From a virus: 64,000 nucleotides of DNA. Both the position numbers and the translations under genes were made by a program. How positions within the stretch are numbered: the stretch's first letter is position 1; the number at the start of each line of letters is the position of its first letter. Location: the IMG/VR virus record IMGVR_UViG_3300045988_111426; one strand, 5' to 3'. The notes beneath the pieces were generated by a model. That model saw only the letters and a program-made list of their open reading frames with translations. It did no database searches and was not told the DNA's origin. Of this stretch, positions 193 to 52,325 are shown one piece after another.

Positions 193-564
193 TTATTTAT
201 AAAACATACCTTCGTGTATGTTGATCGGATTGTCACCGAGAAGGTTCTTCTGTGTGAGTTTGTCTATGTAGTCATCAAGGTCTCGATATCTCCCAACGAC
301 GATATCTTCCCGACCACATTCACCTTCGATAATACCGAGCATTTCGGAATATGATAGAAGACAATAACGAATGCCGTTGAGTTCTATCATATAACCGTTA
401 GTTTCACCGAAGAAGACCTTATCTCCGACTTTCACATCTTTGTATTTCTCGTTACCACATACGACAACACCAACATTTCTCGGAGAATCGAAATCGAGGA
501 GCGCATCTTTACACAATTCTTCTACAAGAAAGTTGTTTCTTGTTAACTTGATTGATTTTTCCAT
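193..564 (-). CDS. GroES-fold co-chaperonin-like protein with C-terminal extension
   Basis: 'VVVCGNEKYKDVKVGDKVFFGETNGYMIELNGIRYCLLSYSEMLGIIE' parallels the GroES pattern 'VVAVG...VKVGDKVLFGKYAGTEV..DGEEYLIL.E.DILAVIE' (by eye). Confidence 0.4.
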   Translation of the reverse strand: MEKSIKLTRNNFLVEELCKDALLDFDSPRNVGVVVCGNEKYKDVKVGDKVFFGETNGYMIELNGIRYCLLSYSEMLGIIEGECGREDIVVGRYRDLDDYIDKLTQKNLLGDNPINIHEGMFYK

Positions 565-2226: not shown

Positions 2227-2934
2227 ATGGAGCTTGTATCAGAAACGATAATGAGGATGTCTCAATCTGTGCCTTATTCTACCATAGTCAGTAGATCAAA
2301 GAAGTGGTTTGATGATGTTTATGTGATGAAAGAGAAGAAACCTGCGGAAGAATCTCGAACACCTATTCCAAAGATCGGAAAGATTTACACGTGGTTCTAT
2401 GATCCATTAACTAAGGACGAAATGGACTTCTTCTCGTGGTGTCCACTAACTTTCATAATAGGTTACAAAGTGACCTCGGGAGGTCATCTTCTTCCATATG
2501 GAATAAACCTGTCGTTTATACCTCCGTCGATGCGTATAAAAATCCTCGACACGATAATAAGGCTTTGGAATACGCAAGTCATAAATCCTAACATAGAAAA
2601 GATAAAAGCGGGAGAAACACCGATATTGGACATTCCTCTTTATTATGATGTCGCAAAGAAAGTCCTGCAAAATAGTGGTTTTGAGTTTGCAATCAGATCA
2701 TACAGGCTTGAAAGATTCCAATCCTCACCAATGATTGTTTCGTATGAAGATTGGTACAAGATTTGCACATTTCCGATAAGATATATCGAGAAAATGCAGA
2801 TAAGAGCGATCTATTGGAGATATTGGAGAAGTCTTGATGGAAGTGGTATAGGAAAGCACAAAAATGTGGAAATTGTAAAAACAAAGATAAAAGAAGTACA
2901 AGACTATGTGAAGAAAAGAGAATCAAGGAAATGA
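2227..2934 (+). CDS. hypothetical protein (weak resemblance to T4 gp2-type DNA end protector)
   Basis: 235-aa plus-strand ORF, divergent from the baseplate gene. It ends at a convergent hairpin terminator (3008-3041). The 'IGKIYTWFYDPLTKDEMDFFSWCPL..YGINLSFIPPSMRIKIL' pattern is recalled from memory only. Confidence 0.45.
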   Translation: MELVSETIMRMSQSVPYSTIVSRSKKWFDDVYVMKEKKPAEESRTPIPKIGKIYTWFYDPLTKDEMDFFSWCPLTFIIGYKVTSGGHLLPYGINLSFIPPSMRIKILDTIIRLWNTQVINPNIEKIKAGETPILDIPLYYDVAKKVLQNSGFEFAIRSYRLERFQSSPMIVSYEDWYKICTFPIRYIEKMQIRAIYWRYWRSLDGSGIGKHKNVEIVKTKIKEVQDYVKKRESRK

Positions 2935-3007: not shown

Positions 3008-3041
3008 GAGAGGGCAAGGAAATAGTTTTCCTTGCCCTCTC
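3008..3041. terminator. perfect 15-bp hairpin at a convergent gene junction
   Basis: gagagggcaaggaaa-tagt-tttccttgccctctc, between the stop of 2227..2934 (+) and the stop of 3081..3494 (-). Arms belong to the TTTCCTTGC repeat family. Confidence 0.65.
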
Positions 3042-3080: not shown

Positions 3081-3494
3081 TTAATAAGCGAGGAAGTAAT
3101 AACCGTTGTGTTCGAAGTAGTCGCCCATAAGAAGGTCACGTCTGAAACTATCGTAGTCGAAGTAACGATAAATCGTGTCTGGATTAGCTGCACCTTCAAT
3201 ACATGGGTCGATGTAGAGTTCGTTTACCATATCTTCAAATCCATCATCATCACACTGGTAGTTTTCTTCTGCCTTCTCGATGAGCGCATCAGCAAGTTCC
3301 TTCTGCAAGTCGATTTCTGAGTAGTAGTCATCATAGTCTTCTGAGATTTCGAATTCCCCTGCTTCCTTTTCGTCGTCGTATTCGAAGTCAATATCGACTT
3401 CAACATTACAATAGCCACTTTCAAAGTAGGCGATCACTGCGTCATAGTCGATGTGGCAGTTGTCCTTGATGTATTCTCTAATAGTCGTCGTCAT
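3081..3494 (-). CDS. ArdA-like acidic anti-restriction protein paralogue 1
   Basis: 137 aa, D/E-rich. C-terminus 'IYRYFDYDSFRRDLLMGDYFEHNGYYF' matches the ArdA C-terminal motif (Tn916 Orf18 '..YIDYQAYGRDLDLSGTFISTNHGIF', recalled). Confidence 0.55.
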   Translation of the reverse strand: MTTTIREYIKDNCHIDYDAVIAYFESGYCNVEVDIDFEYDDEKEAGEFEISEDYDDYYSEIDLQKELADALIEKAEENYQCDDDGFEDMVNELYIDPCIEGAANPDTIYRYFDYDSFRRDLLMGDYFEHNGYYFLAY

Positions 3495-3512
3495 AATCTT
3501 TTGTTTTTTAGA

Positions 3513-3526
3513 TTTCGTTATTTAAA
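3513..3526 (-). promoter_or_regulatory. late-promoter-like motif (minus strand TTTAAATAACGAAA)
   Basis: About 20 nt upstream of the ATG at 3494. It directly follows the 3528-3584 hairpin. Confidence 0.4.
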
Positions 3527-3527
3527 T

Positions 3528-3584
3528 GAACGAGGGGGGGGGTCACGTAATAAAAGATAACTACGTGACCCCCCCCCCTCGTTC
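3528..3584 (-). terminator. 22-bp stem hairpin containing G9/C10 homopolymer tracts
   Basis: gaacga-G9-tcacgta / tacgtga-C10-tcgttc with a 12-nt loop, in the only long spacer of the ArdA-like array. Confidence 0.55.
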
Positions 3585-3614
3585 GATTCTTTTACGTTTA
3601 TTAGTTTCTCTCGA

Positions 3615-3995
3615 CTAATGTCCGATGAACCAATAACCATTGTGTTCGAAGAAACCATCTACAAAAAGATGTTCTCTGAACTTATCATAATCGAAGAAGC
3701 GATAAATCCCCTTCGGATCAGCTCCATCACCGATGTATGAATCGATATAGTGATCGTTCACCATGTCTTCAAACGAAGCTTCATCACATTGATAAACGCT
3801 TTCTGCCTTATCAATGAGTTTATCTGCGAGTTCCTTCTGAATATCGATTTCCATGGCTTCGAATCCTCCTGCTTCCTTTTCGTCGTATTCGAAGTCGATA
3901 TCGATACCACTGACACTGGTATCATATTCGTAATAGGCGATTACTGCTTCGTAAGGAATATGGCAGTTGTCTTTGATATAGTCTCTGATAGTCAT
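3615..3995 (-). CDS. ArdA-like acidic protein paralogue 2
   Basis: 126 aa. 'MTIRDYIKDNCHIPYEAVIAYY..' and C-terminus 'IYRFFDYDKFREHLFVDGFFEHNGYWF'. Closely related to paralogue 1. Confidence 0.55.
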   Translation of the reverse strand: MTIRDYIKDNCHIPYEAVIAYYEYDTSVSGIDIDFEYDEKEAGGFEAMEIDIQKELADKLIDKAESVYQCDEASFEDMVNDHYIDSYIGDGADPKGIYRFFDYDKFREHLFVDGFFEHNGYWFIGH

Positions 3996-4007
3996 TTTTT
4001 CGTATTT

Positions 4008-4343
4008 TTAGAATGATGAGAACACGTAGTTGTCTTTTACTGTGTAGCCACGATCAATGAGCATCTGCTTATACGATTCATAATCGAAGAACTCTCGGAT
4101 GTAGCTGATGTCGCTCATGTTCTTCAACATTGGGATGATGAAAAATCTGTCGACAGTATCTTCGAGGTTTTCTTCAAGACAGAAGAACTCGATATCTGCA
4201 GTTTCGACGAAATATTCCACTTTCTTTTCAAACTGAGAATAATCGTCTTCAAGAGAGAATCCAAATCTGTCACCGAACAACTCGTAAAATTTGAGATACA
4301 TCTTCGATTCGAAGAGACCTTCTAAGTATTCTTTAATTGTCAT
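4008..4343 (-). CDS. ArdA-like acidic protein paralogue 3 (divergent)
   Basis: 111 aa. 'MTIKEYL..' leader and C-terminus 'IREFFDYESYKQMLIDRGYTVKDNYVF'. Confidence 0.4.
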   Translation of the reverse strand: MTIKEYLEGLFESKMYLKFYELFGDRFGFSLEDDYSQFEKKVEYFVETADIEFFCLEENLEDTVDRFFIIPMLKNMSDISYIREFFDYESYKQMLIDRGYTVKDNYVFSSF

Positions 4344-4361
4344 ATTTCTCTTTTCTTCTTA

Positions 4362-4754
4362 TTACCACTCTTCAGCTCTGAAGTGATAACCGTTATCTTC
4401 ATACCAATCACCCATTTCATCAAGCGTATGATAGAAATGTGTCCATGGGTCTTCTTCCCATTTCTCTCTCCATTCTTGGAGTTCTTCATCATCCTCAAGA
4501 TCATCACCATAGCACTCATCGAAGTATCTCAGAGCATCTTCCTTAGAGTTGATTGGATATTCAGCTATGGCACGGTCACGTGCCTGTTCTACGAGTTCTT
4601 CGGTCTCATCTTGAAAGTCTTCATATTCGTCGTTCTCTATATCGAGATCACGAAGATCTTCACCTACGTCGATATCTTCTGTTCCAGCACATGCGATGTA
4701 CGCAAAGACGAGATCTGCGTCGGGTAGCGTCTTGATATATTCTTCTACAGTCAT
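4362..4754 (-). CDS. ArdA-like acidic protein paralogue 4
   Basis: 130 aa. 'MTVEEYIKTLPDADLVFAYIAC' and C-terminus '..DEMGDWYEDNGYHF'. Very acidic. Confidence 0.45.
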   Translation of the reverse strand: MTVEEYIKTLPDADLVFAYIACAGTEDIDVGEDLRDLDIENDEYEDFQDETEELVEQARDRAIAEYPINSKEDALRYFDECYGDDLEDDEELQEWREKWEEDPWTHFYHTLDEMGDWYEDNGYHFRAEEW

Positions 4755-4769
4755 GTTTCTTTTTCTTTT

Positions 4770-5159
4770 TTACATGTTATAAGTGTCCATGAAGTAGTAA
4801 CCATCTTGTTCAAACCAAGGACATATTTCATCAATCGATTGGAAGAACTTAGTCCACGGATCTTTTTCCCATATTGCCTTATATTCTAAGTATTCTGGAT
4901 CGTTGCCACTACCATCACCAACGCAAGTCTTGAGATACTCGTAGATGTCTTCCTCAGTTCTTACTGGATATGGGTACATGCAATTATTGAATGATCCGTA
5001 TATGAGCTTATCGGCTTTATCTTTGACATCTTCGTATTCATCGTTGTCGATATCAATATCCACGGTTTCTTTTCCATACTTCCCATCTTTGACACATTCG
5101 ATATACGCAAAGATGAGACCTGCGTCTTCAAGTGTGTTGATGTATTCTCTTACAGTCAT
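4770..5159 (-). CDS. ArdA-like acidic protein paralogue 5
   Basis: 129 aa. 'MTVREYINTLEDAGLIFAYIEC' and C-terminus '..DEICPWFEQDGYYF'. Confidence 0.45.
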   Translation of the reverse strand: MTVREYINTLEDAGLIFAYIECVKDGKYGKETVDIDIDNDEYEDVKDKADKLIYGSFNNCMYPYPVRTEEDIYEYLKTCVGDGSGNDPEYLEYKAIWEKDPWTKFFQSIDEICPWFEQDGYYFMDTYNM

Positions 5160-5184
5160 TTTCTTATTATTTCTTTATGTTTTA

Positions 5185-5586
5185 TTACCAAGCACCAACC
5201 ACGAAATAATAACCGTTGTATTCAGCCCAGTTATCACTCATCGTATCGAGCAATTGATGGAGCATTCCGAGTGGGTCATCTTCGAATCTCTTTCTTCCTT
5301 CTTGGATATCTACGTCTGGATCATTTTCATGACCATGACAAGTTTCATCGTAGTATCTGAGAATATCTCCTTCGGATGTGATTGGGTAGTCGGTGAGTGC
5401 ACGATCACGAGCTTCTTCTACAAATGCATCGATGTAGTCTTTGACATCTTCGTACTGTTTGTGGAATATGAAAATGTCAAAATCTTCAAATTCCGCACCT
5501 GTGAGATATTCGAAGATGATGCAATTGATATACGCAAAGATGAGATCTTTGTCGGGTAACGATTCGACATATTCTTCTGCGGTCAT
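5185..5586 (-). CDS. ArdA-like acidic protein paralogue 6
   Basis: 133 aa. 'MTAEEYVESLPDKDLIFAYINC' and C-terminus '..MSDNWAEYNGYYF'. Confidence 0.45.
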   Translation of the reverse strand: MTAEEYVESLPDKDLIFAYINCIIFEYLTGAEFEDFDIFIFHKQYEDVKDYIDAFVEEARDRALTDYPITSEGDILRYYDETCHGHENDPDVDIQEGRKRFEDDPLGMLHQLLDTMSDNWAEYNGYYFVVGAW

Positions 5587-5628
5587 ATTTGTTTCTTATT
5601 AAGATTGTTTCTTTATTTGTTGCGGAAG

Positions 5629-6039
5629 CTATCCACGTTCGTAATCTTTTTCCATCATGTAGAAAAAGTAACCGTCGTGTTCGAACATGCCGTCTTCCAC
5701 AAGATCTTCGAAATAGGCGACCATCATTGCGTTTTCGTCACCACCATACATTTGAAGGACATCTTCGTAATCACCTCCTTCTCGGAGAAGTTCGATACAT
5801 CCGTCGTTTTTGACGAACTCTACCATTTCCTCCTCATTAGTGGCGTAACACATGAACGTCGTACGAGCATTCTTGATTATTTCATCGATATGTTTGGAGA
5901 CATCTTCGTATTCCAGTTTCAAGAACTTGTCGACATCTTTAGTTCCGACTTTGTCCTCGTATTGGTGTATCACACAGGCGACATATGCTCGGATGATGTC
6001 TCTGTCTTCGAGTTGATTGATGTATGATTTGATCGTCAT
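5629..6039 (-). CDS. ArdA-like acidic protein paralogue 7
   Basis: 136 aa. 'MTIKSYINQLEDRDIIRAYVAC' and C-terminus '..LVEDGMFEHDGYFF'. Confidence 0.4.
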   Translation of the reverse strand: MTIKSYINQLEDRDIIRAYVACVIHQYEDKVGTKDVDKFLKLEYEDVSKHIDEIIKNARTTFMCYATNEEEMVEFVKNDGCIELLREGGDYEDVLQMYGGDENAMMVAYFEDLVEDGMFEHDGYFFYMMEKDYERG

Positions 6040-6044
6040 TGTCG

Positions 6045-6269
6045 TTATTCTTCAGAGTTTACTTCTTCTGATTCCGATTCTGTTATGGTGTCTATACCAT
6101 CTCTTACGAACTTTTGTATTTTCCCAAAACTGATCGTGTCGTCGTCATCAATGTCAATGGAGAGATCTTTTTCAAACCATCCATTGTTCCGAACATATTT
6201 CAAGATATCAGAAACTGAGATTTTTCCTATAGACTTACAAATGTCTATTATACAATCCTTGATCGTCAT
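6045..6269 (-). CDS. short acidic protein sharing the array's N-terminal leader
   Basis: 74 aa. 'MTIKDCI..' leader and acidic tail 'ESESEEVNSEE'; lacks the C-terminal ArdA-type motif. Late-promoter-like motif at 6299-6312 upstream. Confidence 0.4.
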   Translation of the reverse strand: MTIKDCIIDICKSIGKISVSDILKYVRNNGWFEKDLSIDIDDDDTISFGKIQKFVRDGIDTITESESEEVNSEE

Positions 6270-6298: not shown

Positions 6299-6312
6299 TT
6301 TCGTTATTTAAA
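6299..6312 (-). promoter_or_regulatory. late-promoter-like motif (TTTAAATAACGAAA)
   Basis: 30 nt upstream of the ATG at 6269, at the head of the acidic-protein array. Confidence 0.4.
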
Positions 6313-6325
6313 AGACGATATGTTT

Positions 6326-6541
6326 TCAGAACGACCACGTGTCGCTACCTTCAGCATTTTCACCTACGCCAATAACTATTGTGGGTTCTGGTTCTGATAT
6401 CTGGAAGTTGTAGTGGATGAGGTTGTCTTTTGATGATCTCGCATCTATGAAGTCCGATATCGAAATCACTAACAATCCGAATATTGCGGTTATTATTATC
6501 GAGATTACGGCTATTACTACGTTTTGCTTTAAATCGTCCAT
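6326..6541 (-). CDS. small single-pass membrane protein
   Basis: 71 aa with hydrophobic segment 'VVIAVISIIITAIFGLLVISI'. Confidence 0.45.
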   Translation of the reverse strand: MDDLKQNVVIAVISIIITAIFGLLVISISDFIDARSSKDNLIHYNFQISEPEPTIVIGVGENAEGSDTWSF

Positions 6542-6566: not shown

Positions 6567-6689
6567 TTACATGAAGAAACTCATGATGACCATAACACAC
6601 GATACAATGAAAACGATCATGGACATGATCAAGATGAGGAAAAGTGATGCACCGATCACTACTAACGTATTTAAGATCTTACGGATCAT
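6567..6689 (-). CDS. 40-aa hydrophobic micro-protein (below ORF-track cutoff)
   Basis: Own translation MIRKILNTLVVIGASLFLILIMSMIVFIVSCVMVIMSFFM*. ATG at 6689..6687. Confidence 0.35.
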   Translation of the reverse strand: MIRKILNTLVVIGASLFLILIMSMIVFIVSCVMVIMSFFM

Positions 6690-6732: not shown

Positions 6733-6794
6733 TTTTTATATGTTGTGGATGGTGGCCAGATTTTCTCATCACCACCCTCCACAACATATAAAAA
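6733..6794 (-). terminator. 23-bp stem hairpin (one mismatch)
   Basis: tttttatatgttgtggatggtgg / ccaccctccacaacatataaaaa, with A/T runs on both flanks. Confidence 0.55.
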
Positions 6795-6826: not shown

Positions 6827-6943
6827 TCAGATGAGAATGATCGATTGAATAATCACCATCACGAGCATCAAGACAATAGTCGCAATTATGCCGTTGGTGA
6901 CTATTTTCGTCACGTCAACATTCTTCTTTCTTTTCTTGTTCAT
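6827..6943 (-). CDS. 38-aa single-TM micro-protein, ATGA-coupled to primase stop
   Basis: Own translation MNKKRKKNVDVTKIVTNGIIATIVLMLVMVIIQSIILI*. Its ATG (6943..6941) overlaps the TGA (6942..6940) of the upstream gene. Confidence 0.4.
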   Translation of the reverse strand: MNKKRKKNVDVTKIVTNGIIATIVLMLVMVIIQSIILI

Positions 6944-8118
6944 ATGTAAAGTGTATCAAATTCATCATTACCAAAGTACTTCTCCAAGACACCCATATTG
7001 AAGTTTGGGAATTTTCTGACTATGTCGTTCATATCTTTGCACGTGTAAGCAATATCTGGGAAATCTTCTGCAAACTTTGCCCACAAGAAGGTGTTGTAAC
7101 CACCATTTATCAGTTCCAATGACTTCTTTTTGCCTGCCATATCAAGGAGCGTATTATCGGTGATGTAGTATGCGCTCTTGTTATAGACAAAGTTTGAAAG
7201 TCCCCAACATGCGATCGAATTGTCCACGAAGTAGGCATCGAAAGTCCCTTCAAGAATGTTGTATCTTCGAGAGAAGTCAATATGCAACGAGTTCCATATC
7301 ATTGATATCTTGTCAAACTTCACGGAAAGCTCTTCGAAACCCTTCGGCTGAAGCTGGAAAATGTCAGTCCATATTTTAGACCATGACATCGTTGTAAACC
7401 TTCTCCGTGACTTCGGAGAGAGGTGCTTGATCTGCACACCTATCACATCACGCATATTCTTCGCAAGATTGAAAACATAAAGGTCTTCATACTTCTCGTT
7501 ATATGCAAACGTCCTCAATCTGTTTTCGTAAAGATCGGTTTTATCGGTGATCACTGCTCTTTTTCGGAGATATTCGATGAGCGCAGGTGATCTTCTGACT
7601 TCTCGGAGATGTTTTGCGCCCATTATCTCTTCTCTTGGAAATGCGTAATCGTTGACTTCTGGGACTTGCGTCGATATGTGACCATCTTTGTCGATAATGT
7701 CACGACCAGTGACTTTGATCGATTTGTCGGTTTTCGCAAGACCACTTTTCATGAAGTCCTCGAAAACTCGCTTGATGTGAGAAAGTTCTACATGCGTGAA
7801 ACTGTACTGAAGTCCGTACTCATGTATGAGATTGTACAAAGAGCCAAACGGCTTGTGACAATCGTTGTAGCATTTATAAGAGTAGTTTTGGAAGTATATG
7901 TGAAATCTCCTCTTGTATGAACTGCTACCATCTCCACAATGTGGACATCCACAATTAATATCACGGCTTGTCATACTTATCTTCGCTTTGTATGACGTAC
8001 CGAACTTGGATACGAGCACAGACTTGAACAAAGGGATGAACTTTCTTATGAACTCGTCATGAGAAAACGACTCTGTTTCCGTAGAAAAATCGAAGATTCC
8101 TTGCACATTTTCCATCAT
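6940..8118 (-). CDS. DNA primase (T4 gp61-like, CHC2-type zinc finger)
   Basis: 'CPHCGDGSSSYKRRFHIYFQNYSYKCYNDCHKPFGSLYNLI' matches the primase Zn-ribbon pattern. Adjacent to the SSB gene. Confidence 0.6.
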   Translation of the reverse strand: MMENVQGIFDFSTETESFSHDEFIRKFIPLFKSVLVSKFGTSYKAKISMTSRDINCGCPHCGDGSSSYKRRFHIYFQNYSYKCYNDCHKPFGSLYNLIHEYGLQYSFTHVELSHIKRVFEDFMKSGLAKTDKSIKVTGRDIIDKDGHISTQVPEVNDYAFPREEIMGAKHLREVRRSPALIEYLRKRAVITDKTDLYENRLRTFAYNEKYEDLYVFNLAKNMRDVIGVQIKHLSPKSRRRFTTMSWSKIWTDIFQLQPKGFEELSVKFDKISMIWNSLHIDFSRRYNILEGTFDAYFVDNSIACWGLSNFVYNKSAYYITDNTLLDMAGKKKSLELINGGYNTFLWAKFAEDFPDIAYTCKDMNDIVRKFPNFNMGVLEKYFGNDEFDTLYI

Positions 8119-9417: not shown

Positions 9418-11007
9418 TTAGATTATCGATTCATCGATTTCCATGACGATGTTGTCAGAGATCATAAACATGATAGCGACTGATATCGAGTTCTCGATAC
9501 AGTTTTTTATGACACGTGCCGAGTCAATGATACCGTCAGAGATCGAGTTGTACGACTTCTGACGTTTCTTGGCATCGTAACCGTATTCGTCGTCTTCCTT
9601 TACAAAGTAGAGGATTGATGATTCTTCTTCCTCTGATATGCACGAGTTGTCCATGATCTTCTTGAACACTGATTCAAGACCTGTTTTCATAATGTGGAAC
9701 GTGTCCAGTGAAGGATCAAGCGCAGAGATTAGTCTTAGGTACGTGATACCACAACCTGCAACTATTCCGTCCTTGTATGCCGATCTGATAGCACAAATCG
9801 CATCTTCAAGTCTGTCCTTGTGTTCATAGACCTCAGATTCAGAATTCCCACCGACCTTAATGACGGCAACTGATGATCTCAAGGTGGCTATTCTCTTCTC
9901 GATCCATTCCTTGTCTTCCTCGTCAGAATCCATCAGAGACTTTAGGTTCGAGATATGCTCTTCGACTGCAGACGATACACTTTCCTTGTCATTTCTGATC
10001 GTCGTGGTGTTTTTATCCACAAAGACGCTTCGACCGCAAGAGAAGTACTCTTCTGTAAACGAAAGAGGGGTGACGGACTGGTCTCCCACCATAAGTGGCT
10101 TCATACCAAGCGAAATGGAGAGGTCAGTGAGATATTCTTCACGCTTCTGTCCATAGTACGGAGGATTGACAAGACAGATGTTCATCTTTCCACTCTGATT
10201 ATTGGCGATCAATGTGGAAAGTGCTTCACCTTCGATGTTTTCCGCAATGATCAGCAGATCACGGACACCTGTACCGTAGATTCTTGAAAGCGCATTGAGC
10301 ATCGTCTTACCATCTTGGATCTTGTGATTTGTGATGAAGATTGCACAATCGTCAGATTCGAACGACATCTTTGACTTATCATTTACGAAATAATGAGACT
10401 GCCAACCACCGTCAAATCGGAATCCAGATTCGATCGAATAGGTTATATCAGAAAGCTGTGATTGTTCAAGAACGATTATCCCATCTTTGCCGATCTTCCC
10501 ATAAATCTCCGAAAGAAGACCTGCAAGTTTCTCATCGTTGTTCGTGGAGATCTTTGCGATATCGAAGACCTGCTGAATATCGACGATCGGTGTGGCAATT
10601 TCTCGAAGCTTTTCAATGAGGACATCCTTCATCTTTTCCATTTCGTGACGAAGTCGGTGAACATCGATCTCGGGATTCTCATTTAGAAGTCCGTCGATGA
10701 GTTTCATCATCGTATACGCCATCACAACAGAAGACGTTGTTCCATCACCTGCATCAACTGCAGTTCGCATTGATGCTTGCTTTACGAGCTGACAACCTAT
10801 GTTGTGCCAATAATTCTGTAGCTTCATCTTTCTTGCTACAGTCACACCGTCTTTAGTGACCTGTGGCACATCGTACGTGTTGTGCTTGATGATGACATTC
10901 CGACCACCAGGTCCCAGAGTAGACCCAACAACGTCGTGGATCGTCTTTGCACCAACGAGGATCAGCTCTCTGGCTTCTGATCCACTTTTTACATCTACAG
11001 CGTTCAT
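9418..11007 (-). CDS. groL: GroEL-type chaperonin
   Basis: 'TLGPGGRNVII', 'VTKDGVTVA' and 'DGTTSSVV' are colinear with GroEL 'TLGPKGRNVV', 'ITKDGVSVA' and 'DGTTTATV'. 529 aa. Confidence 0.9.
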   Translation of the reverse strand: MNAVDVKSGSEARELILVGAKTIHDVVGSTLGPGGRNVIIKHNTYDVPQVTKDGVTVARKMKLQNYWHNIGCQLVKQASMRTAVDAGDGTTSSVVMAYTMMKLIDGLLNENPEIDVHRLRHEMEKMKDVLIEKLREIATPIVDIQQVFDIAKISTNNDEKLAGLLSEIYGKIGKDGIIVLEQSQLSDITYSIESGFRFDGGWQSHYFVNDKSKMSFESDDCAIFITNHKIQDGKTMLNALSRIYGTGVRDLLIIAENIEGEALSTLIANNQSGKMNICLVNPPYYGQKREEYLTDLSISLGMKPLMVGDQSVTPLSFTEEYFSCGRSVFVDKNTTTIRNDKESVSSAVEEHISNLKSLMDSDEEDKEWIEKRIATLRSSVAVIKVGGNSESEVYEHKDRLEDAICAIRSAYKDGIVAGCGITYLRLISALDPSLDTFHIMKTGLESVFKKIMDNSCISEEEESSILYFVKEDDEYGYDAKKRQKSYNSISDGIIDSARVIKNCIENSISVAIMFMISDNIVMEIDESII

Positions 11008-11016
11008 TCAGTCTGT

Positions 11017-11274
11017 TTATCTTACAATGATTAATATTTCGTGTTCCTCTACTACCTTGAACTTATCTCCCTCAATAAGCACCTCAATACCAGAGAATTT
11101 GTTGACGATCACTTTATCCCCAACTTTTACTTCTGTGACACCCATCCCAACATTGGAGACTACGCCTGCAGTCTGGTCTACATCGTTGTGTTGTACCAGC
11201 TCGAAGCCATCGATCTGCTTTTCGACCTCATTGAGCTTTATGAGGATCTTTTTTCCTAAAAGTTTTATTTCCAT
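11017..11274 (-). CDS. groS: GroES-type co-chaperonin
   Basis: 85 aa; 'KILIKL..AGVVSNVG..VKVGDKVIVNKFSGIEVLIEGDKFKVVEEHEILIIV'. Starts 10 nt after... the groL stop lies 10 nt downstream of it (gene order groS then groL in transcription). Confidence 0.8.
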   Translation of the reverse strand: MEIKLLGKKILIKLNEVEKQIDGFELVQHNDVDQTAGVVSNVGMGVTEVKVGDKVIVNKFSGIEVLIEGDKFKVVEEHEILIIVR

Positions 11275-11281
11275 TTCTTTC

Positions 11282-12778
11282 TTAATGTCCGAAGTTATCT
11301 TTTAATATCTGCTTTAAGTGATTAATATCTGCTTTGATTTCTGCCTCTTTGTGTTTTGCTTCTACTCGTTTGTTGAACATGTTCGAGATCATGGTTCGAA
11401 TTGCGGAATCTCTGTTTTTTGAGTAAACTGCACCACTTGATGAATAACACATCGATTCGTCAAGTTCGTGCTGTTCACCCATCTTGTCCACGTAGGTTTT
11501 TCCCTTATCATCGGTATGACCGAGGTAAACATCTTCACCAACGTTCAACATCTGCATAATTGAGGGGAACAGTGATTCGTAGTCATAGATGACAATCCCA
11601 TCATAAACACCAATACCTGGTTGTAAGACGAATCCTGCACTGTAAGTTTCACCTTCGGGAATCTGCTTGTCATAATCCTTTACAAACACTTTGTTGTAAT
11701 GCTTGTAATAGTAGTCACACAAGAGTGTTTCAATCCCTACACTGACGAACATAGACTGTGCAACTTCGACACGTAGAAGATTTGCAAGAACGCTCATTGA
11801 TTCGAATGTTCTACACTTCTTATCGATCAATGCCACGAGGAACGTATCGATGATACCATAAAGCACGTAACGTTCATAGTCCTTCTCATAGAGTTCCATC
11901 AGAGTTTCGGAATGATGGATCTTCTTGACACCAAGGATCTCCGATGCGATAAAGTCGAGTGACATTGATGACTTCTGCTTAATCGATCTATCAAAGAACT
12001 CAAAGATTTGCATGTAGTCGATGATTGGTCGATGAAGAGGAAGTTCGATTTCAATCTTAGATGAATGATCAAACTTGTCTTTCGCAATCGTCGAGTAAAG
12101 CATTCTCTTCGGGGAGAGAATTGTAGGATCAATGTTCGTCTTCTTACATCTGTTGACGAGATATCTTGTATCGAACTTCAAGACGTTCCATCCGAAAATA
12201 CACGGCATCCGTGTTGCGTGATTCTCGACGAAGTCTTTGTTCATTGTGAACTCATCGGGGTAGTAAATGTAACGGAACTTATACCTCTGATGAAGTGTTT
12301 TATCGGTGATTTGTGAAAGATAGTCGTTGATCTTCTGTTCGATAGAGTCGATTTGTGTCTGTGAAAGTGGCTTGATCCCCATGACAGTACCATTCCCGAA
12401 TTCGTCACAATACTGATGCGTGAAGATTCTCCCTACAGGATTTCCAGCATCTGGGAAGTCATCAAAAACTTCCGTTTCGATATCCCAGAAGAACTTACGA
12501 GGTTGATTGTTTGAGAAAATCTTCGCTTGTAAACGTTCTGGTAGAGACAATAAGAACTCGATCTTGCGATATTTGTCGAGATAGGACTTACGTTCCTTTT
12601 TCACAGGGAATCCGTCTTGGGACACGTAAGTCTTATCTCGGAACTTATCATCTTCGGTTGTCTTTGTCCATACGTACTTTTCACGATCATCTATTGTTAT
12701 GTCAGATATCGCAATGTTTCCGTTTTCGTCGAAATAAGACACCGACATCTTGTCTCTGATCTGTTTACAATTGATCAT
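11282..12778 (-). CDS. family-B DNA polymerase, N-terminal half (3'-5' exonuclease plus motif A)
   Basis: ExoI 'FWDIETEV', ExoII 'FGWNVLKFDTRYL', ExoIII 'YGIIDTFLV', motif A 'YDYESLFPSIM'. The ORF stops before motif B. Confidence 0.85.
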   Translation of the reverse strand: MINCKQIRDKMSVSYFDENGNIAISDITIDDREKYVWTKTTEDDKFRDKTYVSQDGFPVKKERKSYLDKYRKIEFLLSLPERLQAKIFSNNQPRKFFWDIETEVFDDFPDAGNPVGRIFTHQYCDEFGNGTVMGIKPLSQTQIDSIEQKINDYLSQITDKTLHQRYKFRYIYYPDEFTMNKDFVENHATRMPCIFGWNVLKFDTRYLVNRCKKTNIDPTILSPKRMLYSTIAKDKFDHSSKIEIELPLHRPIIDYMQIFEFFDRSIKQKSSMSLDFIASEILGVKKIHHSETLMELYEKDYERYVLYGIIDTFLVALIDKKCRTFESMSVLANLLRVEVAQSMFVSVGIETLLCDYYYKHYNKVFVKDYDKQIPEGETYSAGFVLQPGIGVYDGIVIYDYESLFPSIMQMLNVGEDVYLGHTDDKGKTYVDKMGEQHELDESMCYSSSGAVYSKNRDSAIRTMISNMFNKRVEAKHKEAEIKADINHLKQILKDNFGH

Positions 12779-14338: not shown

Positions 14339-15475
14339 CTATAAAGACCCATCTTGGGAGAACACACCATTTACGAACTTCTTCTGATATTTCCCGAGCT
14401 TCTTGAGGACAGCCGTTGAAAGTAGAAGTGTCGATCCGCTCATAAACGAGTTACCATACTCTTGGTTAAAGTCGGCTTCAGAACCAAGGTCGGCAATCTG
14501 ATCAAGTCTCCATTGTTCGTCTCTGCCTTCGACCTCCCACCAGTCTATTCTTATTGGGTTGAAGTTGTTCTTACCATCGAGTGCATCTTGATAAAGCTGA
14601 TAGAACTTGTTCATACCTCTTGCCGTGCTGGTGATGATCATCTTCGACTTCTTACTTGCAGAAAGTGTAGGATAAACTACACGGAAGAACTCGTTGATGA
14701 TGTTTGGTTCAATAAGTGCAAACTCGTCAGCATAAAGGAGGTCGGCAGTTTCACCTGCACCAGAGTTCTCCGTGGCAGTTTCACCGATCAGTTTACAACC
14801 GTTGTCCCATTTCTTCTTGGATACGTTATCGACTTCAATCCCGAGCTTCATATAGAACGGAAGATGCATGAAGATCGAGTTTATCTTGTCAACAAGCTCA
14901 TCAACCTTGTCTGCGTTAGCACTAGTACAAAGAACAGTCTTGTCGTAGTTAGTCAAGATATACCATGCAATGAAAATGCCCGACATTACAGAGTTGTGAG
15001 AAAGTATGCCGTCAGAGAAATATGATAAAGTCTCATCCACGACAGACAGGTCGAACACGATCTGCTGATGAGACTTCTTGAGTGAAGAGACTTTCCGTGC
15101 ACCATCCATTGTCATTAAGATATCACCTAAAGAGAGATCTCGGACTTTCGTAGGTTGATAGCTTTCAAGTGAACTCTTGGAAGAATAGATGAGGTGATTA
15201 ACAGATCCACTGACTGAGTATTCACCTGCACCAACCTCCACGATGTCATGTACGGCTTTCAAATGAACAGAAGAAAGTGGCTTCCAACCGTTTATAGTGA
15301 GTGTTTCGTGGTTATCAAGTACAACTGAATCGATTATTCCGTCATCGTTTATTGGAAATCTCCAAAGTTTGTATCGTATTATTGTGAGGAAGATTATCAG
15401 TTTGTCGAGGATGTATTGCATGAAGTCTTTGAAAAATACAGATGAATGAGGATGCACTTGTTCGTACACCCTCAT
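14339..15475 (-). CDS. terL: Hint/intein domain fused to the terminase ATPase domain, which lacks Walker A
   Basis: Intein blocks 'SGSVNHLIY' (B) and 'VFDLSVVDETLSYFSDGILSHN|S' (F/G). The following 'SVMSGIFIAWYIL...LLYADEFALIEP...MIITSTARGMNKFY' is colinear with gp17 'TTVVAIFLAHFV...MIYIDECAFIPN...IIITTTPNGLNHFY'. No 'RQxGK' P-loop precedes it. Confidence 0.8.
   Translation of the reverse strand: MRVYEQVHPHSSVFFKDFMQYILDKLIIFLTIIRYKLWRFPINDDGIIDSVVLDNHETLTINGWKPLSSVHLKAVHDIVEVGAGEYSVSGSVNHLIYSSKSSLESYQPTKVRDLSLGDILMTMDGARKVSSLKKSHQQIVFDLSVVDETLSYFSDGILSHNSVMSGIFIAWYILTNYDKTVLCTSANADKVDELVDKINSIFMHLPFYMKLGIEVDNVSKKKWDNGCKLIGETATENSGAGETADLLYADEFALIEPNIINEFFRVVYPTLSASKKSKMIITSTARGMNKFYQLYQDALDGKNNFNPIRIDWWEVEGRDEQWRLDQIADLGSEADFNQEYGNSFMSGSTLLLSTAVLKKLGKYQKKFVNGVFSQDGSL
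14993..15328 (-). mobile_element. mini-intein / Hint module (aa ~50-161) at the TerL P-loop site
   Basis: C-terminal 'SHN' followed by a +1 Ser. No endonuclease domain. The N-terminal boundary is uncertain (possible block A 'SVVLDNHETLTINGWKPL'). Confidence 0.6.
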
Positions 15476-16329: not shown

Positions 16330-16785
16330 CTACTTTCCTATGTGTTGAGATTGATGATGATGGCTGATGTGGCTGATGTTGATATCGATCGATACGTCTT
16401 GCTTTATCTTCATCAAGAATTGTTCTATTCTCTTTTTTTCTTCTGCCTTATTACGTGTACCGAAGTTGTAATTCTTACCACGACCTTCGGGATATCTTTC
16501 ACGGATCTTGATGAGATTTGCTTCCATGACATCATCAATCGTGACACCAAGGAAATGACAAATGTTCATGAAGTAGAACAGAACATCACCGAGTTCGTCT
16601 ACGAGATCAACCTTCGAGATCTCCTTAGAATGGAACACTGCCTTCTTGACTATATCAGCAAATTCACCAGATTCTGACATAAGTGCCATTGTCATGTGAA
16701 TGAAGTCGAGAACCTTGTTGTTTGTAGGATTCTCGTTGAAGCAAGAAACGACAAATTGCTCGTATTCTTTTACTTTTTCATCCAT
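16330..16785 (-). CDS. mazG: MazG-like nucleoside triphosphate pyrophosphohydrolase
   Basis: 'MALMSESGEFADIVKK...LVDELGDVLFYFMNICHFLGVTIDDVMEANLIKIRERY' fits the all-alpha NTP-PPase pattern. The track start at 16800 is TTG; an ATG lies at 16785. His-rich tail. Confidence 0.75.
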   Translation of the reverse strand: MDEKVKEYEQFVVSCFNENPTNNKVLDFIHMTMALMSESGEFADIVKKAVFHSKEISKVDLVDELGDVLFYFMNICHFLGVTIDDVMEANLIKIRERYPEGRGKNYNFGTRNKAEEKKRIEQFLMKIKQDVSIDINISHISHHHQSQHIGK

Positions 16786-16832
16786 TTTTATTGTTATCAA
16801 TATGACTGATTTGTGGTATTCTTATATATGAC

Positions 16833-17459: not shown

Positions 17460-17474
17460 TTCTCATTATTTAAA
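17460..17474 (-). promoter_or_regulatory. late-promoter-like motif variant (TTTAAATAATGAGAA)
   Basis: 26 nt upstream of the ATG at 17434. Confidence 0.35.
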
Positions 17475-19973: not shown

Positions 19974-20052
19974 TTTGATTGATTGATTGGGGTGAAAATA
20001 TTCGTCGATATTCCAGAGCACAAGGAAAGTACCTTCCTTAAGCTCGGAGAGC

Positions 20053-20451
20053 CTATTTTATGAGGAATGTGGTGATCGCCACTGCAGAAGAAAGAAGTCC
20101 AACATATTTCCAAAATGCTGACTTTTGTCTTTCCTTCTTCAGAGATTTTTCATAAATCTCCACCATCTTCTTATGGTTTGATATGATAGTGTCATTTTTC
20201 ATCATCATCTCGTCATATTTGCGGAGCTGTTCAAGCTGGTTTTCGATGATGAGTGTCTTGTTGTCCACGACTTCTCTCAAAGACTGCATAATCGAATCCT
20301 TCATTGCGGAGATCTCAAGAAGTTGCTTATGTTGATCAAACATGTGGTTGATTATGACAGCATCTTTCTTCGAGATTTCTATGTTCTGCGCACGTGATCC
20401 AAATGTACAACAGAGAAGCATCACTATCGAGAAGCTAATTATTCTTTTCAT
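20053..20451 (-). CDS. secreted or lipoprotein-like coiled-coil protein with C-terminal TM
   Basis: Signal-like 'MKRIISFSIVMLLCCTFGSRAQ', a coiled-coil middle, and a 'VGLLSSAVAITTFLI' anchor. Confidence 0.45.
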   Translation of the reverse strand: MKRIISFSIVMLLCCTFGSRAQNIEISKKDAVIINHMFDQHKQLLEISAMKDSIMQSLREVVDNKTLIIENQLEQLRKYDEMMMKNDTIISNHKKMVEIYEKSLKKERQKSAFWKYVGLLSSAVAITTFLIK

Positions 20452-48492: not shown

Positions 48493-48506
48493 TTTCGTTA
48501 TTTAAA
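48493..48506 (-). promoter_or_regulatory. late-promoter-like motif (TTTAAATAACGAAA)
   Basis: 10 nt upstream of the portal ATG at 48483. Confidence 0.4.
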
Positions 48507-52298: not shown

Positions 52299-52325
52299 TT
52301 TCTATTTATATTTCGTTATTTAACC
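52299..52325 (-). promoter_or_regulatory. two tandem late-promoter-like motifs (TATAAATAGAAA and GGTTAAATAACGAAA)
   Basis: 17-43 nt upstream of the sheath ATG at 52282. Confidence 0.45.

What the first reader, a model, noticed from the sequence alone, without database searches (positions are those of the whole stretch)
3081..6269. Eight tandem small acidic paralogues carrying an ArdA-type C-terminal motif
- **Array:** eight head-to-tail minus-strand ORFs of 74-137 aa, with 5-42 nt spacers except one 120-nt gap.
- **Shared leader:** all start MT(I/V/T/A)x(E/D/S)(Y/C)(I/V/L).
- **Composition:** all are strongly D/E-rich.
- **C-termini:** seven end with variants of F(D)Y(D/E)x(F/Y)(R/K)xxL...(D/N)GY(Y/H/W/F)F, e.g. 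'YRYFDYDSFRRDLLMGDYFEHNGYYF'.
- **Family match:** from memory this matches the C-terminal part of the ArdA DNA-mimic anti-restriction protein (Tn916 Orf18 '..YIDYQAYGRDLDLSGTFISTNHGIF').
- **Missing part:** the canonical ArdA N-terminal domain appears absent.
- **Interpretation:** an eight-fold diversified array suggests an arms-race counter-defence locus, with each copy possibly tuned to a different Type I R-M or other DNA-binding defence system.
Basis: partly seen in the sequence, partly recalled or inferred. Interest (0 to 1): 0.7.

Follow-up and report, generated by a model that had tools for sequence, protein, structure and literature searches.

The report
Variable array of truncated ArdA-like genes
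A large T4-like phage from a human oral metagenome carries a head-to-tail row of small, very acidic paralogous genes whose C-terminal domain is remotely related to the dimerisation domain of the DNA-mimic anti-restriction protein ArdA, and the number of copies differs from phage to phage, which points to a counter-defence locus whose activity is still untested.

Summary
Eight minus-strand ORFs (3081-6269) lie head to tail and are all acidic. Seven (par1-par7) are demonstrably homologous. The eighth (par8, 74 aa) shares only the N-terminal ~28 residues, and that link is not significant.

Pfam does not call any copy ArdA. Profile-profile comparison links the par1/par2 subgroup to ArdA domain 3, the dimer interface or "antirestriction motif" (probability 87-94%, P 2e-7 to 4e-6). 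A second array from a more distant phage gives the same register. Foldseek's best PDB hit for the par1 model is ArdA 2W82. par3 to par7 are tied to ArdA only through family homology. ArdA domain 1 is absent.

Sister phages carry 4-11 copies in a conserved order at the same locus. Orthologues are under purifying selection (dN/dS 0.07-0.15).

Unexpectedly, par8 and par1 are each preceded by a TAAATAACGAAA motif. This motif otherwise sits upstream of the portal and tail-sheath genes, so it is probably a T4-type late promoter.

Best reading: truncated ArdA-derived acidic inhibitors of DNA-binding defence or repair enzymes, which is a new variant of a known kind. Function and timing are inferred, not shown.

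The parts
6045..6269 (-). par8: 74-aa acidic head gene of the array. It shares only the N-terminal ~28-40 residues with the family and has no ArdA-like C-terminal domain.
   Evidence: ORF. A par8-like gene heads the array in all six closely related loci L001-L006, but not in the distant relative L088. hhalign to the par1/par2 group gives P 5.7e-4 over residues 1-43 only. dN/dS 0.15.
5629..6039 (-). par7 (136 aa, group G3): the first full family member, present in every sister phage.
   Evidence: hhalign to G1 gives 93.4% over the C-terminal 71 columns. dN/dS 0.12. No direct ArdA signal.
5185..5586 (-). par6 (133 aa, group G2).
   Evidence: G2 is the block whose copy number varies from 0 to 5 among relatives.
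4770..5159 (-). par5 (129 aa, group G5).
   Evidence: A spurious sub-threshold Gag_p10 hit probably explains why a relative is named 'Matrix protein' in UniProt.
4362..4754 (-). par4 (130 aa, group G2), the most acidic copy (35% D+E, net charge -37).
   Evidence: The AF2 model has pLDDT 89.2 and the same order of helices and C-terminal beta-hairpin as par1. Foldseek against BFVD finds only the protein's own family.
4008..4343 (-). par3 (111 aa, group G4), carrying an FDYESYKQML...DNYVF C-terminus.
   Evidence: hhalign to ArdA gives P 1.3e-3 in the same register as par1. dN/dS 0.07.
3615..3995 (-). par2 (126 aa, group G1), an ArdA-domain-3-like C-terminus.
   Evidence: 59% identical to par1. 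Part of the G1 profile that matches ArdA.
3081..3494 (-). par1 (137 aa, group G1): the last gene of the array and the clearest ArdA-like copy. Residues ~84-131 align to ArdA (Tn916 Orf18) residues 111-157.
   Evidence: AF2 pLDDT 93.1, pTM 0.82. Top Foldseek PDB hit is 2w82_A. BFVD hits are named 'Antirestriction'. hhalign results. The ArdA HMM scores 22.4 bits, the best of 460 window ORF segments.
6299..6312 (-). TTTAAATAACGAAA, a late-promoter-like motif ending 29 nt upstream of the par8 ATG.
   Evidence: The exact motif also lies upstream of the portal and tail-sheath genes. There are 6 hits against 1.06 expected, all on the minus strand and all 14-35 nt (measured from the 8-nt core) before an ORF start. 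It is conserved upstream of the array in L001-L006 and in L088.
3513..3526 (-). A second TTTAAATAACGAAA motif, ending 18 nt upstream of the par1 ATG.
   Evidence: It aligns in five of six relatives: exact in L003, L004 and L005, and with a G-to-A change (TAAATAACAAAA) in L001 and L006.
3528..3584 (-). Perfect G10/C9-containing stem-loop between par2 and par1. It is probably a transcript end or stabiliser placed ahead of par1's own promoter.
   Evidence: Inverted repeats I2 and I4. The 120-nt spacer folds at -50.4 kcal/mol with z -7.9. Conserved in relatives.
3008..3041 (.). 15-bp perfect hairpin between the convergent par1 and gp2-like genes, probably the terminator that closes the array.
   Evidence: Inverted repeat I3. 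Sequence. The gp2-like gene 2227-2934 (+) matches phrog_429 and PF26869.

Best explanation
The locus is an expandable battery of small acidic proteins derived from the C-terminal part of the ArdA DNA-mimic anti-restriction fold.

Architecture. Each full copy has three parts:
- a family-specific N-terminal module of about 45 residues (beta-strand 'TIxEY', then two helices);
- a long acidic helix and loop region of variable length;
- an ArdA-domain-3-like unit (strand, three helices, terminal GYxF beta-hairpin). In ArdA this unit is the dimer interface and carries the conserved 'antirestriction motif'.

Inferred mechanism. The proteins dimerise through this domain and present a carboxylate-rich surface. 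That surface occupies the DNA-binding groove of host DNA-targeting enzymes. Type I R-M complexes are the prime candidates. BREX-type systems or nucleases that attack modified DNA are alternatives. Different paralogues would cover different targets.

Locus organisation and dynamics. The array grows and shrinks by duplication and loss (4-11 copies in sister phages), while each retained copy is kept by purifying selection. Transcription appears to start at a T4-late-type promoter ahead of par8. It appears to stop at a strong hairpin after par2 and to restart at a second copy of the promoter ahead of par1.

Shown: the paralogy, the remote homology of par1/par2 to ArdA domain 3, the acidity, the copy-number variation, purifying selection, and conservation of the motif. 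Inferred: dimerisation, DNA mimicry, the targets, and the timing of expression.
For: Real genes and one family:
- BLASTP chain and hhalign network.
- dN/dS 0.07-0.15, against 0.06 for the neighbouring gp2-like gene.

ArdA link:
- G1 profile against 66 diverse viral ArdA sequences: probability 93.6%, P 2.1e-7, par1 84-129 aligned to ArdA 111-155.
- The tool's own hhalign, A6 against A7: 87%, P 4e-6.
- An independent six-gene array from a more distant phage (L088): 88.6%, P 2.6e-6, ArdA 111-161.
- par3 group: P 1.3e-3 in the same register.
- Column-shuffle null: 0 of 300 shuffles reach the real score (33.5 against a maximum of 19.6).
- The ArdA HMM ranks par1, par2 and par3 as numbers 1-3 of 460 window ORF segments.
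- Recurrent sub-threshold hits to PF07275 and to 'anti-restriction' PHROGs 2059 and 14321.
- The par1 AF2 model is confident (pLDDT 93). Its best PDB match is ArdA 2W82. Its BFVD matches are dominated by proteins named 'Antirestriction' or 'ArdA', including short ones of 110-119 aa.

Acidity: D+E 22-35%.

Precedents showing that ArdA domain 1 is dispensable:
- sArdC, a stand-alone C-terminal ArdA fragment, protects lambda from EcoKI and EcoR124II (PMC12548430).
- Fletchervirus gp119, an ArdA domain 2+3-like protein of a T4-like phage, inhibits EndoV (PMC13091555).

Hypervariable locus: 4-11 copies in the same order and same position in six sister phages, and at least 6 copies in a 70%-identity relative.
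Against: - No copy passes a curated threshold for ArdA in Pfam or PHROGs.
- HMMER profile searches of 1.84 billion representatives and of PDB sequences do not reach ArdA.
- The Foldseek hit to 2W82 is weak (E 0.45, TM 0.31).
- par4-par7 have no direct ArdA signal in sequence. The par4 model has none in fold either.
- The homologous segment is the dimerisation domain, not the part of ArdA that provides most of the DNA-like surface. Homology therefore does not by itself imply mimicry.
- Coordinates of the models were not available, so the charge pattern could not be inspected.
- The promoter-like motif is the one found before structural genes. This is an odd time to make a protein that must act when DNA enters.
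- Orthologues show no gene-wide positive selection.
Confidence: 0.55

Rival explanations
1. Virion-packaged 'internal proteins'. The array would be the functional analogue of the hypervariable internal-protein (IP) locus of T-even phages. The proteins would be made late, loaded into the prohead through the shared N-terminal leader (T-x-x-E-[YF]-I-x-[DE], compared with the T4 capsid-targeting sequence MKTYQEFIAE), and injected with the DNA to neutralise defences at once. This is compatible with an ArdA-like mode of action, because it mainly concerns delivery.
For: - A late-type motif TAAATAACGAAA lies upstream of par8 and par1. The same motif lies upstream of the portal and sheath genes, and a relaxed form lies upstream of the baseplate wedge and two giant ORFs. 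Replication and nucleotide-metabolism genes instead carry a TATAAGA-type motif.
- The motif is conserved at the head of the array in all relatives, including L088.
- The leader is the most conserved segment of the family and is shared with par8, which is otherwise different.
- T4 IPs are described as a diverse set of anti-defence proteins that share only the CTS (PMC3012670). The CTS sequence is confirmed in PMC8442874.
- The neighbouring gene is gp2-like. In T4, gp2 is a late, DNA-end-bound protein that enters the cell with the DNA.
Against: - AF2 places the leader inside the fold at pLDDT 94-97.
- In the L088 paralogues the same motif sits 0-16 residues from the N-terminus.
- There is no conserved Glu at the position of the T4 (L/I)xE cleavage site.
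- No unrelated protein carries the leader in the 64-kb window or in the flanks of seven relatives.
- The major T4 IPs are described as highly basic (PMC8442874), whereas these proteins are strongly acidic.
- No prohead protease could be identified in the window.
- The promoter class is inferred from three structural genes only.
Confidence: 0.15
2. The fold is ArdA-like but the target is not restriction. The paralogues would inhibit host DNA-repair enzymes or modification-dependent nucleases that recognise an unusual phage base. The precedent is Fletchervirus gp119, which inhibits EndoV. Other possible targets are nucleoid or transcription proteins.
For: - gp119 shares ArdA domains 2-3 only, lacks domain 1, and comes from a T4-like phage with a fully substituted base (PMC13091555).
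- The window encodes a PurZ/PurA-like synthetase, an adenylosuccinate lyase, a MazG-like pyrophosphatase and a guanylate kinase. This gene set recalls the 2-aminoadenine pathway, based on my knowledge of the S-2L and PhiVC8 literature.
- It also encodes a DNA methyltransferase.
Against: - The PurZ assignment is far below the curated cut-off (85 bits against 300) and scores no better than archaeal-type PurA.
- No DatZ-like HD-domain protein was found among the ORFs scanned.
- No data on targets exist. sArdC and classical ArdA act on Type I R-M systems (PMC12548430).
Confidence: 0.18
3. The proteins are not an anti-defence system. They would be small acidic late proteins with a role in morphogenesis (scaffold, chaperone or decoration) that merely reuse an ArdA-domain-3-like dimerisation module.
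For: - The promoter motif is the late, structural-gene type.
- The phage invests in its own chaperonins: a GroEL and two GroES-like genes next to the array.
- The homologous part is a dimerisation domain, not the part of ArdA that provides most of the mimic surface.
Against: - An essential structural role fits poorly with copy number ranging from 4 to 11 and with the loss of whole subgroups among near-identical phages.
- The nearest structural and sequence relatives are all anti-restriction proteins.
- The locus lies in the replication and early-type gene block, downstream of primase, rather than among head or tail genes.
Confidence: 0.1

Closest known systems
ArdA (Tn916 Orf18, PDB 2W82; Pfam PF07275)
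   Same: - Strongly acidic.
- The C-terminal unit has the same order of elements: strand, three helices, beta-hairpin.
- It carries the conserved Y-x-D-Y-x-x-[FY]-x-R-D-L ... G-x-x-F motif of ArdA domain 3, which is the dimer interface.
- Remote homology is supported at 87-94% hhalign probability for par1/par2.
- ArdA is the top PDB fold hit.
   Different: - ArdA domain 1 is absent. Its conserved motifs GxWF and EEYAIHD have no counterpart.
- The family has its own N-terminal module.
- Length is 111-137 aa against 165 aa.
- Scores are below every curated threshold.
- The genes occur as 4-11 tandem paralogues in a phage, not as a single gene on a conjugative element.
- The motif upstream is a late-type promoter motif.
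sArdC, small C-terminal ArdA (Utkina et al. 2025, PMC12548430)
   Same: A stand-alone protein that keeps only the C-terminal, dimer-forming part of ArdA. sArdC has experimentally shown anti-restriction and anti-methylation activity, so ArdA domain 1 is not required.
   Different: sArdC is about one third of ArdA's length, is chromosomal in Lactococcus and Actinomycetes, and is a single gene. The proteins here are twice as long, carry an unrelated N-terminal module, are phage-borne, and are arrayed.
Fletchervirus NCTC 12673 gp119 (PMC13091555)
   Same: An acidic ArdA-like protein of a T4-like myovirus that matches only ArdA domains 2-3 and is predicted to dimerise. It shows that truncated ArdA folds in phages can be retargeted to other DNA enzymes, in that case EndoV.
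   Different: gp119 is a single gene. No sequence relationship to it was tested here. Its target is tied to the deoxyinosine genome of that phage.
T-even internal protein locus (IPI*, IPII, IPIII; Repoila et al. 1994, as cited in PMC3012670)
   Same: A hypervariable cluster of small, mutually diverse proteins in T4-type phages. They share a short conserved N-terminal sequence and are made late. At least one of them (IPI*) blocks a restriction enzyme.
   Different: - T4 IPs are not ArdA-like.
- The major T4 IPs are described as highly basic (PMC8442874).
- Their leader is a cleaved targeting peptide.
- Here the leader appears to be part of the fold and can lie internally.
Ocr (T7 gp0.3)
   Same: An acidic, dimeric phage DNA mimic that blocks Type I R-M and BREX (PMC7261183).
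   Different: The fold is unrelated. Ocr is a single gene and the first gene expressed after DNA entry.

Membership tests
ArdA (Pfam PF07275) | Significant match to the curated family model at or above its gathering score | tested here: not met
   None of the eight copies is hit at E<=1. Only 2 of 33 relatives are hit, with best E 0.15. Five further relatives give no hit. PHROG 'anti-restriction' families 2059 and 14321 are hit only at E>=0.04.
ArdA (Pfam PF07275) | N-terminal domain 1 (three-stranded sheet with the conserved G-x-W-F and E-E-Y-A-I-H-D motifs) | tested here: not met
   The ArdA invariant residues G21, W23, E44, E45 and D50 have no counterpart. All profile alignments start at ArdA position ~83 or later. 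In the AF2 models the N-terminus is strand-helix-helix.
ArdA (Pfam PF07275) | Domain 3 carrying the conserved 'antirestriction motif' / dimer interface | tested here: met
   Met for par1/par2: hhalign 93.6% (P 2.1e-7) and 87% (P 4e-6), covering ArdA 111-157. The L088 array gives 88.6%. The shuffle null is. par3 is weak (P 1.3e-3). par4-par7 have this feature only by homology to par1/par2. par8 lacks it.
ArdA (Pfam PF07275) | Highly acidic protein | tested here: met
   D+E 21.6-35.4% and net charge -9 to -37.
ArdA (Pfam PF07275) | Elongated homodimer whose carboxylates mimic about 42 bp of B-DNA | not testable with these tools
   Only monomer models are produced and no coordinates are returned.
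ArdA (Pfam PF07275) | [quoted passage not shown] | not testable with these tools
   This needs restriction-alleviation assays.
sArdC (small C-terminal ArdA, PMC12548430) | Homology restricted to the C-terminal, dimer-interface part of ArdA | tested here: met
   The alignments cover ArdA residues ~111-161 only.
sArdC (small C-terminal ArdA, PMC12548430) | Size about one third of ArdA, with no additional domain | tested here: not met
   The proteins are 111-137 aa with a family-specific N-terminal half.
T4-type internal proteins | Capsid-targeting sequence at the extreme N-terminus, ending in an (L/I)xE protease site | tested here: inconclusive
   The leader resembles MKTYQEFIAE (PMC8442874) in the pattern T-x-x-E-[FY]-I-x-[ED]. 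However, the final Glu is not conserved. The motif lies 0-16 aa from the N-terminus in L088 paralogues. It is modelled as part of the fold.
T4-type internal proteins | Late transcription | tested here: inconclusive
   The TAAATAACGAAA motif is shared with the portal and sheath genes. No expression data are available.
T4-type internal proteins | Locus that is polymorphic among related phages | tested here: met
   4-11 family genes at the same position in six sister phages.
T4-type internal proteins | Presence in the virion and injection with the DNA | not testable with these tools
   This needs virion proteomics.

The most novel reading that the evidence does not exclude
The array is a late-expressed battery of ArdA-derived DNA mimics that is loaded into the capsid and injected with the genome. 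It would be an ArdA-based counterpart of the T-even internal-protein locus, with the conserved N-terminal module serving as the packaging handle. Each paralogue would pre-emptively block a different DNA-targeting defence or repair enzyme in oral Bacteroidota hosts, and possibly protect a base-modified (2-aminoadenine?) genome.
Probability: 0.12. Interest if true: 0.8.

Novelty: new variant of a known kind. Interest (0 to 1): 0.55.

Why it matters
- DNA-mimic anti-restriction proteins are usually found as single genes. A locus holding 4-11 diverged copies of a truncated ArdA fold would be a natural library showing how a small acidic scaffold is retargeted. Recent work on sArdC/sArdN and on gp119 has just opened that question.
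- The proteins are short and fold confidently in prediction, which makes them attractive as specific inhibitors of DNA-binding enzymes.
- The link to a late-type promoter, if confirmed, would raise the question of how a protein made late can protect incoming DNA. Virion delivery is the obvious and testable answer.
- The phage clade comes from human oral metagenomes and has no cultured or annotated relative in the phage collection searched.

Tried and rejected
- blastn of the locus against 50,697 phage records found no match.
- Pfam, PHROGs and PDB-sequence HMM searches with single proteins and with profiles gave nothing at threshold.
- A full HMMER profile search of 1.84 billion representatives found only clade-specific relatives. 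It also gave one spurious hit, P0215, a eukaryote-like Cys-rich repeat protein of 1535 aa with repeated CENGYYF.
- hhalign against a narrow Tn916-like ArdA alignment gave only P 0.032. A diverse ArdA profile was needed.
- Foldseek of the par4 model found no ArdA-like hit.
- The hypothesis that the MTIxEYI leader is a T4-like capsid-targeting signal was considered and downgraded. The leader lies internally in L088 paralogues, is part of the predicted fold, has no conserved cleavage Glu, and is carried by no unrelated protein.
- A search for gp55-like late sigma factors, prohead protease or a recognisable major capsid protein among window ORFs found nothing.
- A search for a DatZ-like HD protein, to back the Z-base idea, found nothing.
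- A literature search for tandem ArdA paralogues in phages found nothing relevant.
- The 'junk or non-coding ORFs' reading is rejected by dN/dS 0.07-0.15.

Full report
**1. The observation**

Listing ORFs gives eight minus-strand ORFs at exactly the stated coordinates:
- par1, 3081-3494, 137 aa
- par2, 3615-3995, 126 aa
- par3, 4008-4343, 111 aa
- par4, 4362-4754, 130 aa
- par5, 4770-5159, 129 aa
- par6, 5185-5586, 133 aa
- par7, 5629-6039, 136 aa
- par8, 6045-6269, 74 aa

The spacers are 120, 12, 18, 15, 25, 42 and 5 nt. All eight are acidic, with D+E 21.6-35.4% and net charge -9 to -37.

The leader MT[IVA]x[EDS][YC][IVL] is present in all eight. par1 has two extra residues. The leader occurs in no other ORF of the 64-kb window, nor in the flanks of seven related loci.

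par1-par7 are homologous. This is shown by a BLASTP chain (5e-48 to 3e-5) and by group-versus-group hhalign at 76-99.9% probability, mostly over the full length.

par8 shares only its first ~28-40 residues with the family (hhalign P 5.7e-4 to the par1/par2 group, BLASTP not significant). I therefore treat it as a conserved head gene of uncertain relationship.

The FDY(D/E)x(F/Y)(R/K)xxL half exists only in par1-par3. Only the terminal (D/N)GYxF hairpin is general.

Orthologues from six sister phages have dN/dS 0.07-0.15, against 0.06 for the neighbouring gp2-like gene. These are therefore functional coding genes under purifying selection.

**2. Where it sits**

The window is part of a T4-type myovirus of about 150 kb. 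The exact par1 sequence lies on a 150,193-bp contig from a human oral metagenome (ERR589410). There is no nucleotide match among 50,697 deposited phage records.

Neighbouring genes:
- a gp2-like DNA-end protector, convergent with par1 (2227-2934, +);
- a baseplate wedge gene;
- upstream on the same strand, two tiny membrane-like ORFs, then primase, a gp32-like SSB, GroEL, GroES and the N-terminal half of a family-B DNA polymerase.

The gene leaders are A-rich and lack Shine-Dalgarno sequences. The nearest GroEL hits are from Bacteroides and Flavobacterium phages. A Bacteroidota host is therefore likely, but this is an inference.

**3. Is it ArdA-like?**

Curated models say no:
- Pfam PF07275 is never reached. 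None of the eight copies is hit. Two of 33 relatives are hit at E>=0.15.
- PHROG 'anti-restriction' families are hit only at E>=0.04.
- HMMER profile searches of PDB sequences and of 1.84 billion representative proteins do not reach ArdA.

The family is confined to this phage clade. The word-indexed search returned 87 proteins, none with a Pfam domain. The 1.84-billion-representative search returned 18 proteins, one of them spurious.

I verified that my recalled Tn916 Orf18 sequence is identical to 2W82. I then collected 80 viral ArdA loci down to 23% identity and built a 66-sequence profile.

Profile-profile results:

| Query set | hhalign probability | P | Region aligned |
|---|---|---|---|
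| whole family | 67% | 5.2e-5 | C-terminal 32 residues |
| par1/par2 group (48 sequences) | 93.6% | 2.1e-7 | par1 84-129 to ArdA 111-155 |
| par1/par2 group, tool's own hhalign on separately built alignments | 87% | 4e-6 | par1 84-131 to ArdA 111-157 |
| par3 group | not significant | 1.3e-3 | same register |
| par4/par6 group | not significant | 8e-3 | adjacent ArdA helix |
| par5, par7 and G6 groups | none | - | - |

Three further tests agree:
- A null of 300 column shuffles of the family alignment gives scores of 11.0 +/- 1.9 (maximum 19.6) against the real 33.5. Composition does not explain the match.
- The ArdA HMM was run without filters on all 460 six-frame ORF segments of the window. 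It ranks par1 first (22.4 bits), par2 second and par3 third.
- An independent test set came from a more distant phage (L088, primase 70% identical). Six family genes follow the primase directly there. Their own six-sequence profile matches ArdA 111-161 at 88.6%, P 2.6e-6.

**4. Structure**

AlphaFold2 with the family alignment gives a confident par1 model (pLDDT 93.1, pTM 0.82). Its elements are E2-4, H5-12, H17-26, E38-40, a long helix H51-78, then E79-82, H83-99, H105-111, H114-123 and a hairpin E126-129/E132-135. The last block has the same order of elements as ArdA domain 3 as described for 2W82; that description is from my knowledge of McMahon et al. 2009, cited in PMC13091555.

Foldseek results for par1:
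- Against PDB, 2w82_A comes first, but weakly (E 0.45, TM 0.31). The next hits are unrelated.
- Against BFVD, the list is dominated by proteins named 'Antirestriction' or 'ArdA'. It includes a 50%-identical family member already so named in UniProt (A0A8S5VU31), three short proteins of 110-119 aa (probability 1.0, TM 0.45-0.56), and ArdA-like proteins of several named phages.

The par4 model (pLDDT 89.2) has the same architecture. Foldseek nevertheless finds only its own family for it.

Conclusion for sections 3 and 4: par1/par2 carry a domain that is very probably homologous to ArdA domain 3. The other five inherit that assignment only through family homology. ArdA domain 1 is absent and is replaced by a family-specific module.

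**5. What is known about truncated ArdAs**

Two recent papers remove the objection that ArdA domain 1 is needed:
- sArdC, a stand-alone C-terminal ArdA fragment overlapping the dimer interface, protects lambda from EcoKI and EcoR124II and has anti-methylation activity (PMC12548430).
- gp119 of the T4-like Fletchervirus NCTC 12673 matches only ArdA domains 2-3, is predicted to dimerise as a DNA mimic, and inhibits EndoV. In that way it protects a deoxyinosine-substituted genome (PMC13091555).

The present proteins resemble these in principle. They differ in three ways: they are twice the size of sArdC, they carry their own N-terminal module, and they are arrayed.

**6. Dynamics of the locus**

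In six sister phages (76-91% identity in par1) the array sits at the same place and is headed by a par8-like gene. It contains 4, 7, 9, 10, 11 and 11 family ORFs. Two of the ORFs in L001 overlap and may be one broken gene.

Clustering at 50% identity gives six groups. Their order is conserved: G3 (par7), then a G2/G5 block of 0-5 copies, then G6 (absent from this window), then G4 (par3), then a G1 block of 1-3 copies.

The variation is therefore by duplication and loss of whole genes. It is not by fast divergence of orthologues.

I found no report of tandem ArdA-like paralogue arrays in the literature library.

**7. Expression signals (inference)**

The exact 14-mer TTTAAATAACGAAA occurs upstream of par8 (6299-6312) and upstream of par1 (3513-3526). 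It also occurs immediately upstream of the portal gene. One-mismatch versions lie upstream of the tail-sheath gene and of an ORF next to the baseplate cluster.

The count is 6 hits against 1.06 expected, and 0 of 100 shuffles reach 6. All are on the coding strand, 14-35 nt before an ATG as measured from the 8-nt core.

Relaxed TAAATAA cores precede the baseplate wedge gene and two giant ORFs. Replication and nucleotide-metabolism genes are instead preceded by a hairpin plus TATAAGA.

The core resembles the T4 late promoter TATAAATA, which is established knowledge.

The motif is conserved at the head of the array in all relatives, including L088. Upstream of par1 it is exact in L003-L005 and has one substitution in L001 and L006.

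Between par2 and par1 lies a perfect G10/C9 stem-loop (-50.4 kcal/mol, z -7.9). A second hairpin closes the array at 3008-3041.

A late promoter is unexpected for a protein that must act on incoming DNA. This led me to consider a T-even IP-like scenario. The T4 capsid-targeting sequence MKTYQEFIAE (PMC8442874) resembles the leader, and T4 IPs are a diverse anti-defence set sharing only that leader (PMC3012670).

The evidence is mostly against the leader being a targeting peptide:
- It is modelled inside the fold.
- It lies 0-16 residues from the N-terminus in L088 paralogues.
- It lacks a conserved cleavage Glu.
- It is carried by no unrelated protein.

Packaging itself remains untested.

**8. 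Verdict**

- The finding is real.
- The ArdA interpretation is supported as remote homology for the par1/par2 subgroup, and by descent for the family. It is not supported as membership of the curated ArdA family.
- The anti-restriction mechanism is plausible by analogy with sArdC and gp119, but it is entirely inferred.
- What appears new is the architecture (a novel N-terminal module fused to ArdA domain 3), the variable array of 4-11 paralogues, and the late-type promoter.
- I rate it a new variant of a known kind, with interest about 0.55.

Noticed in passing
window 20959-22380 (-), 18702-20021 (-), 16330-16800 (-), 39056-39586 (+): A PurZ/PurA-like synthetase was found: NCBIfam PurZ 85 bits against a cut-off of 300, and archaeal-type PurA 82 bits. 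The phage also encodes an adenylosuccinate lyase, a MazG-like pyrophosphatase and a guanylate kinase. This gene set recalls the 2-aminoadenine (Z-base) pathway, so the genome may be base-modified. No DatZ-like HD protein was found among the ORFs scanned.
   Followed up: partly
window, minus strand: 188-201, 3513-3526, 6299-6312, 17461-17474, 48493-48506, 52311-52324; TATAAGA sites upstream of 6940-8118, 16330-16785, 20435-20836, 24212-24697, 31012-31797: There are two classes of promoter-like motif. TAAATAA(CGAAA) lies before structural genes and before the array. A hairpin followed by TATAAGA lies before replication and nucleotide-metabolism genes.
   Followed up: partly
window 9418-11007 (-), 11017-11274 (-), 193-564 (-): The phage encodes a GroEL (about 34% identical to Bacteroides phage DAC16-type proteins), a GroES, and a second, longer GroES-like protein next to the baseplate genes.
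   Followed up: no
window 11282-12778 (-) and 35852-37054 (-): The family-B DNA polymerase appears to be split into two genes about 23 kb apart. The N-terminal exonuclease half matches PHROG 262 positions 12-496 of 856. A separate 400-aa ORF hits PF00136.
   Followed up: no
window 14339-15475 (-): A 378-aa ORF has weak hits to a terminase large subunit and to an intein C-terminal splicing region.
   Followed up: no
window 4770-5159 (par5); BFVD A0A8S5VTT1: A relative of par4/par5 is named 'Matrix protein [Ackermannviridae sp.]' in UniProt. This is probably an annotation artefact of the sub-threshold Gag_p10 hit also seen here (E 0.0018, below the gathering score).
   Followed up: partly
window 6733-6794: A 23-nt inverted repeat (96% complementary, 16-nt loop) lies between the primase stop codon and the two small membrane-like ORFs 6567-6689 and 6326-6541 that precede the array.
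   Followed up: no
L004 about 9875-9935; L005 about 9885-9950: In two sister phages the spacer before the par1-like gene is altered. L004 carries a run of more than 30 A's. L005 carries a much longer G run and a disrupted stem. The homopolymer hairpin therefore looks unstable or hard to assemble.
   Followed up: no
P0215 (1535 aa, from the representative library): A eukaryote-like Cys-rich repeat protein matches the family profile nine times through its repeated 'CENGYYF' segments. This is a false positive of the profile.
   Followed up: yes
window 58179-59375 (-), 57127-58179 (-), 26851-27579 (-): The window encodes an RtcB RNA ligase, a 5'-3' exonuclease and a DNA methyltransferase. These are further candidates for counter-defence or repair functions.
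   Followed up: no
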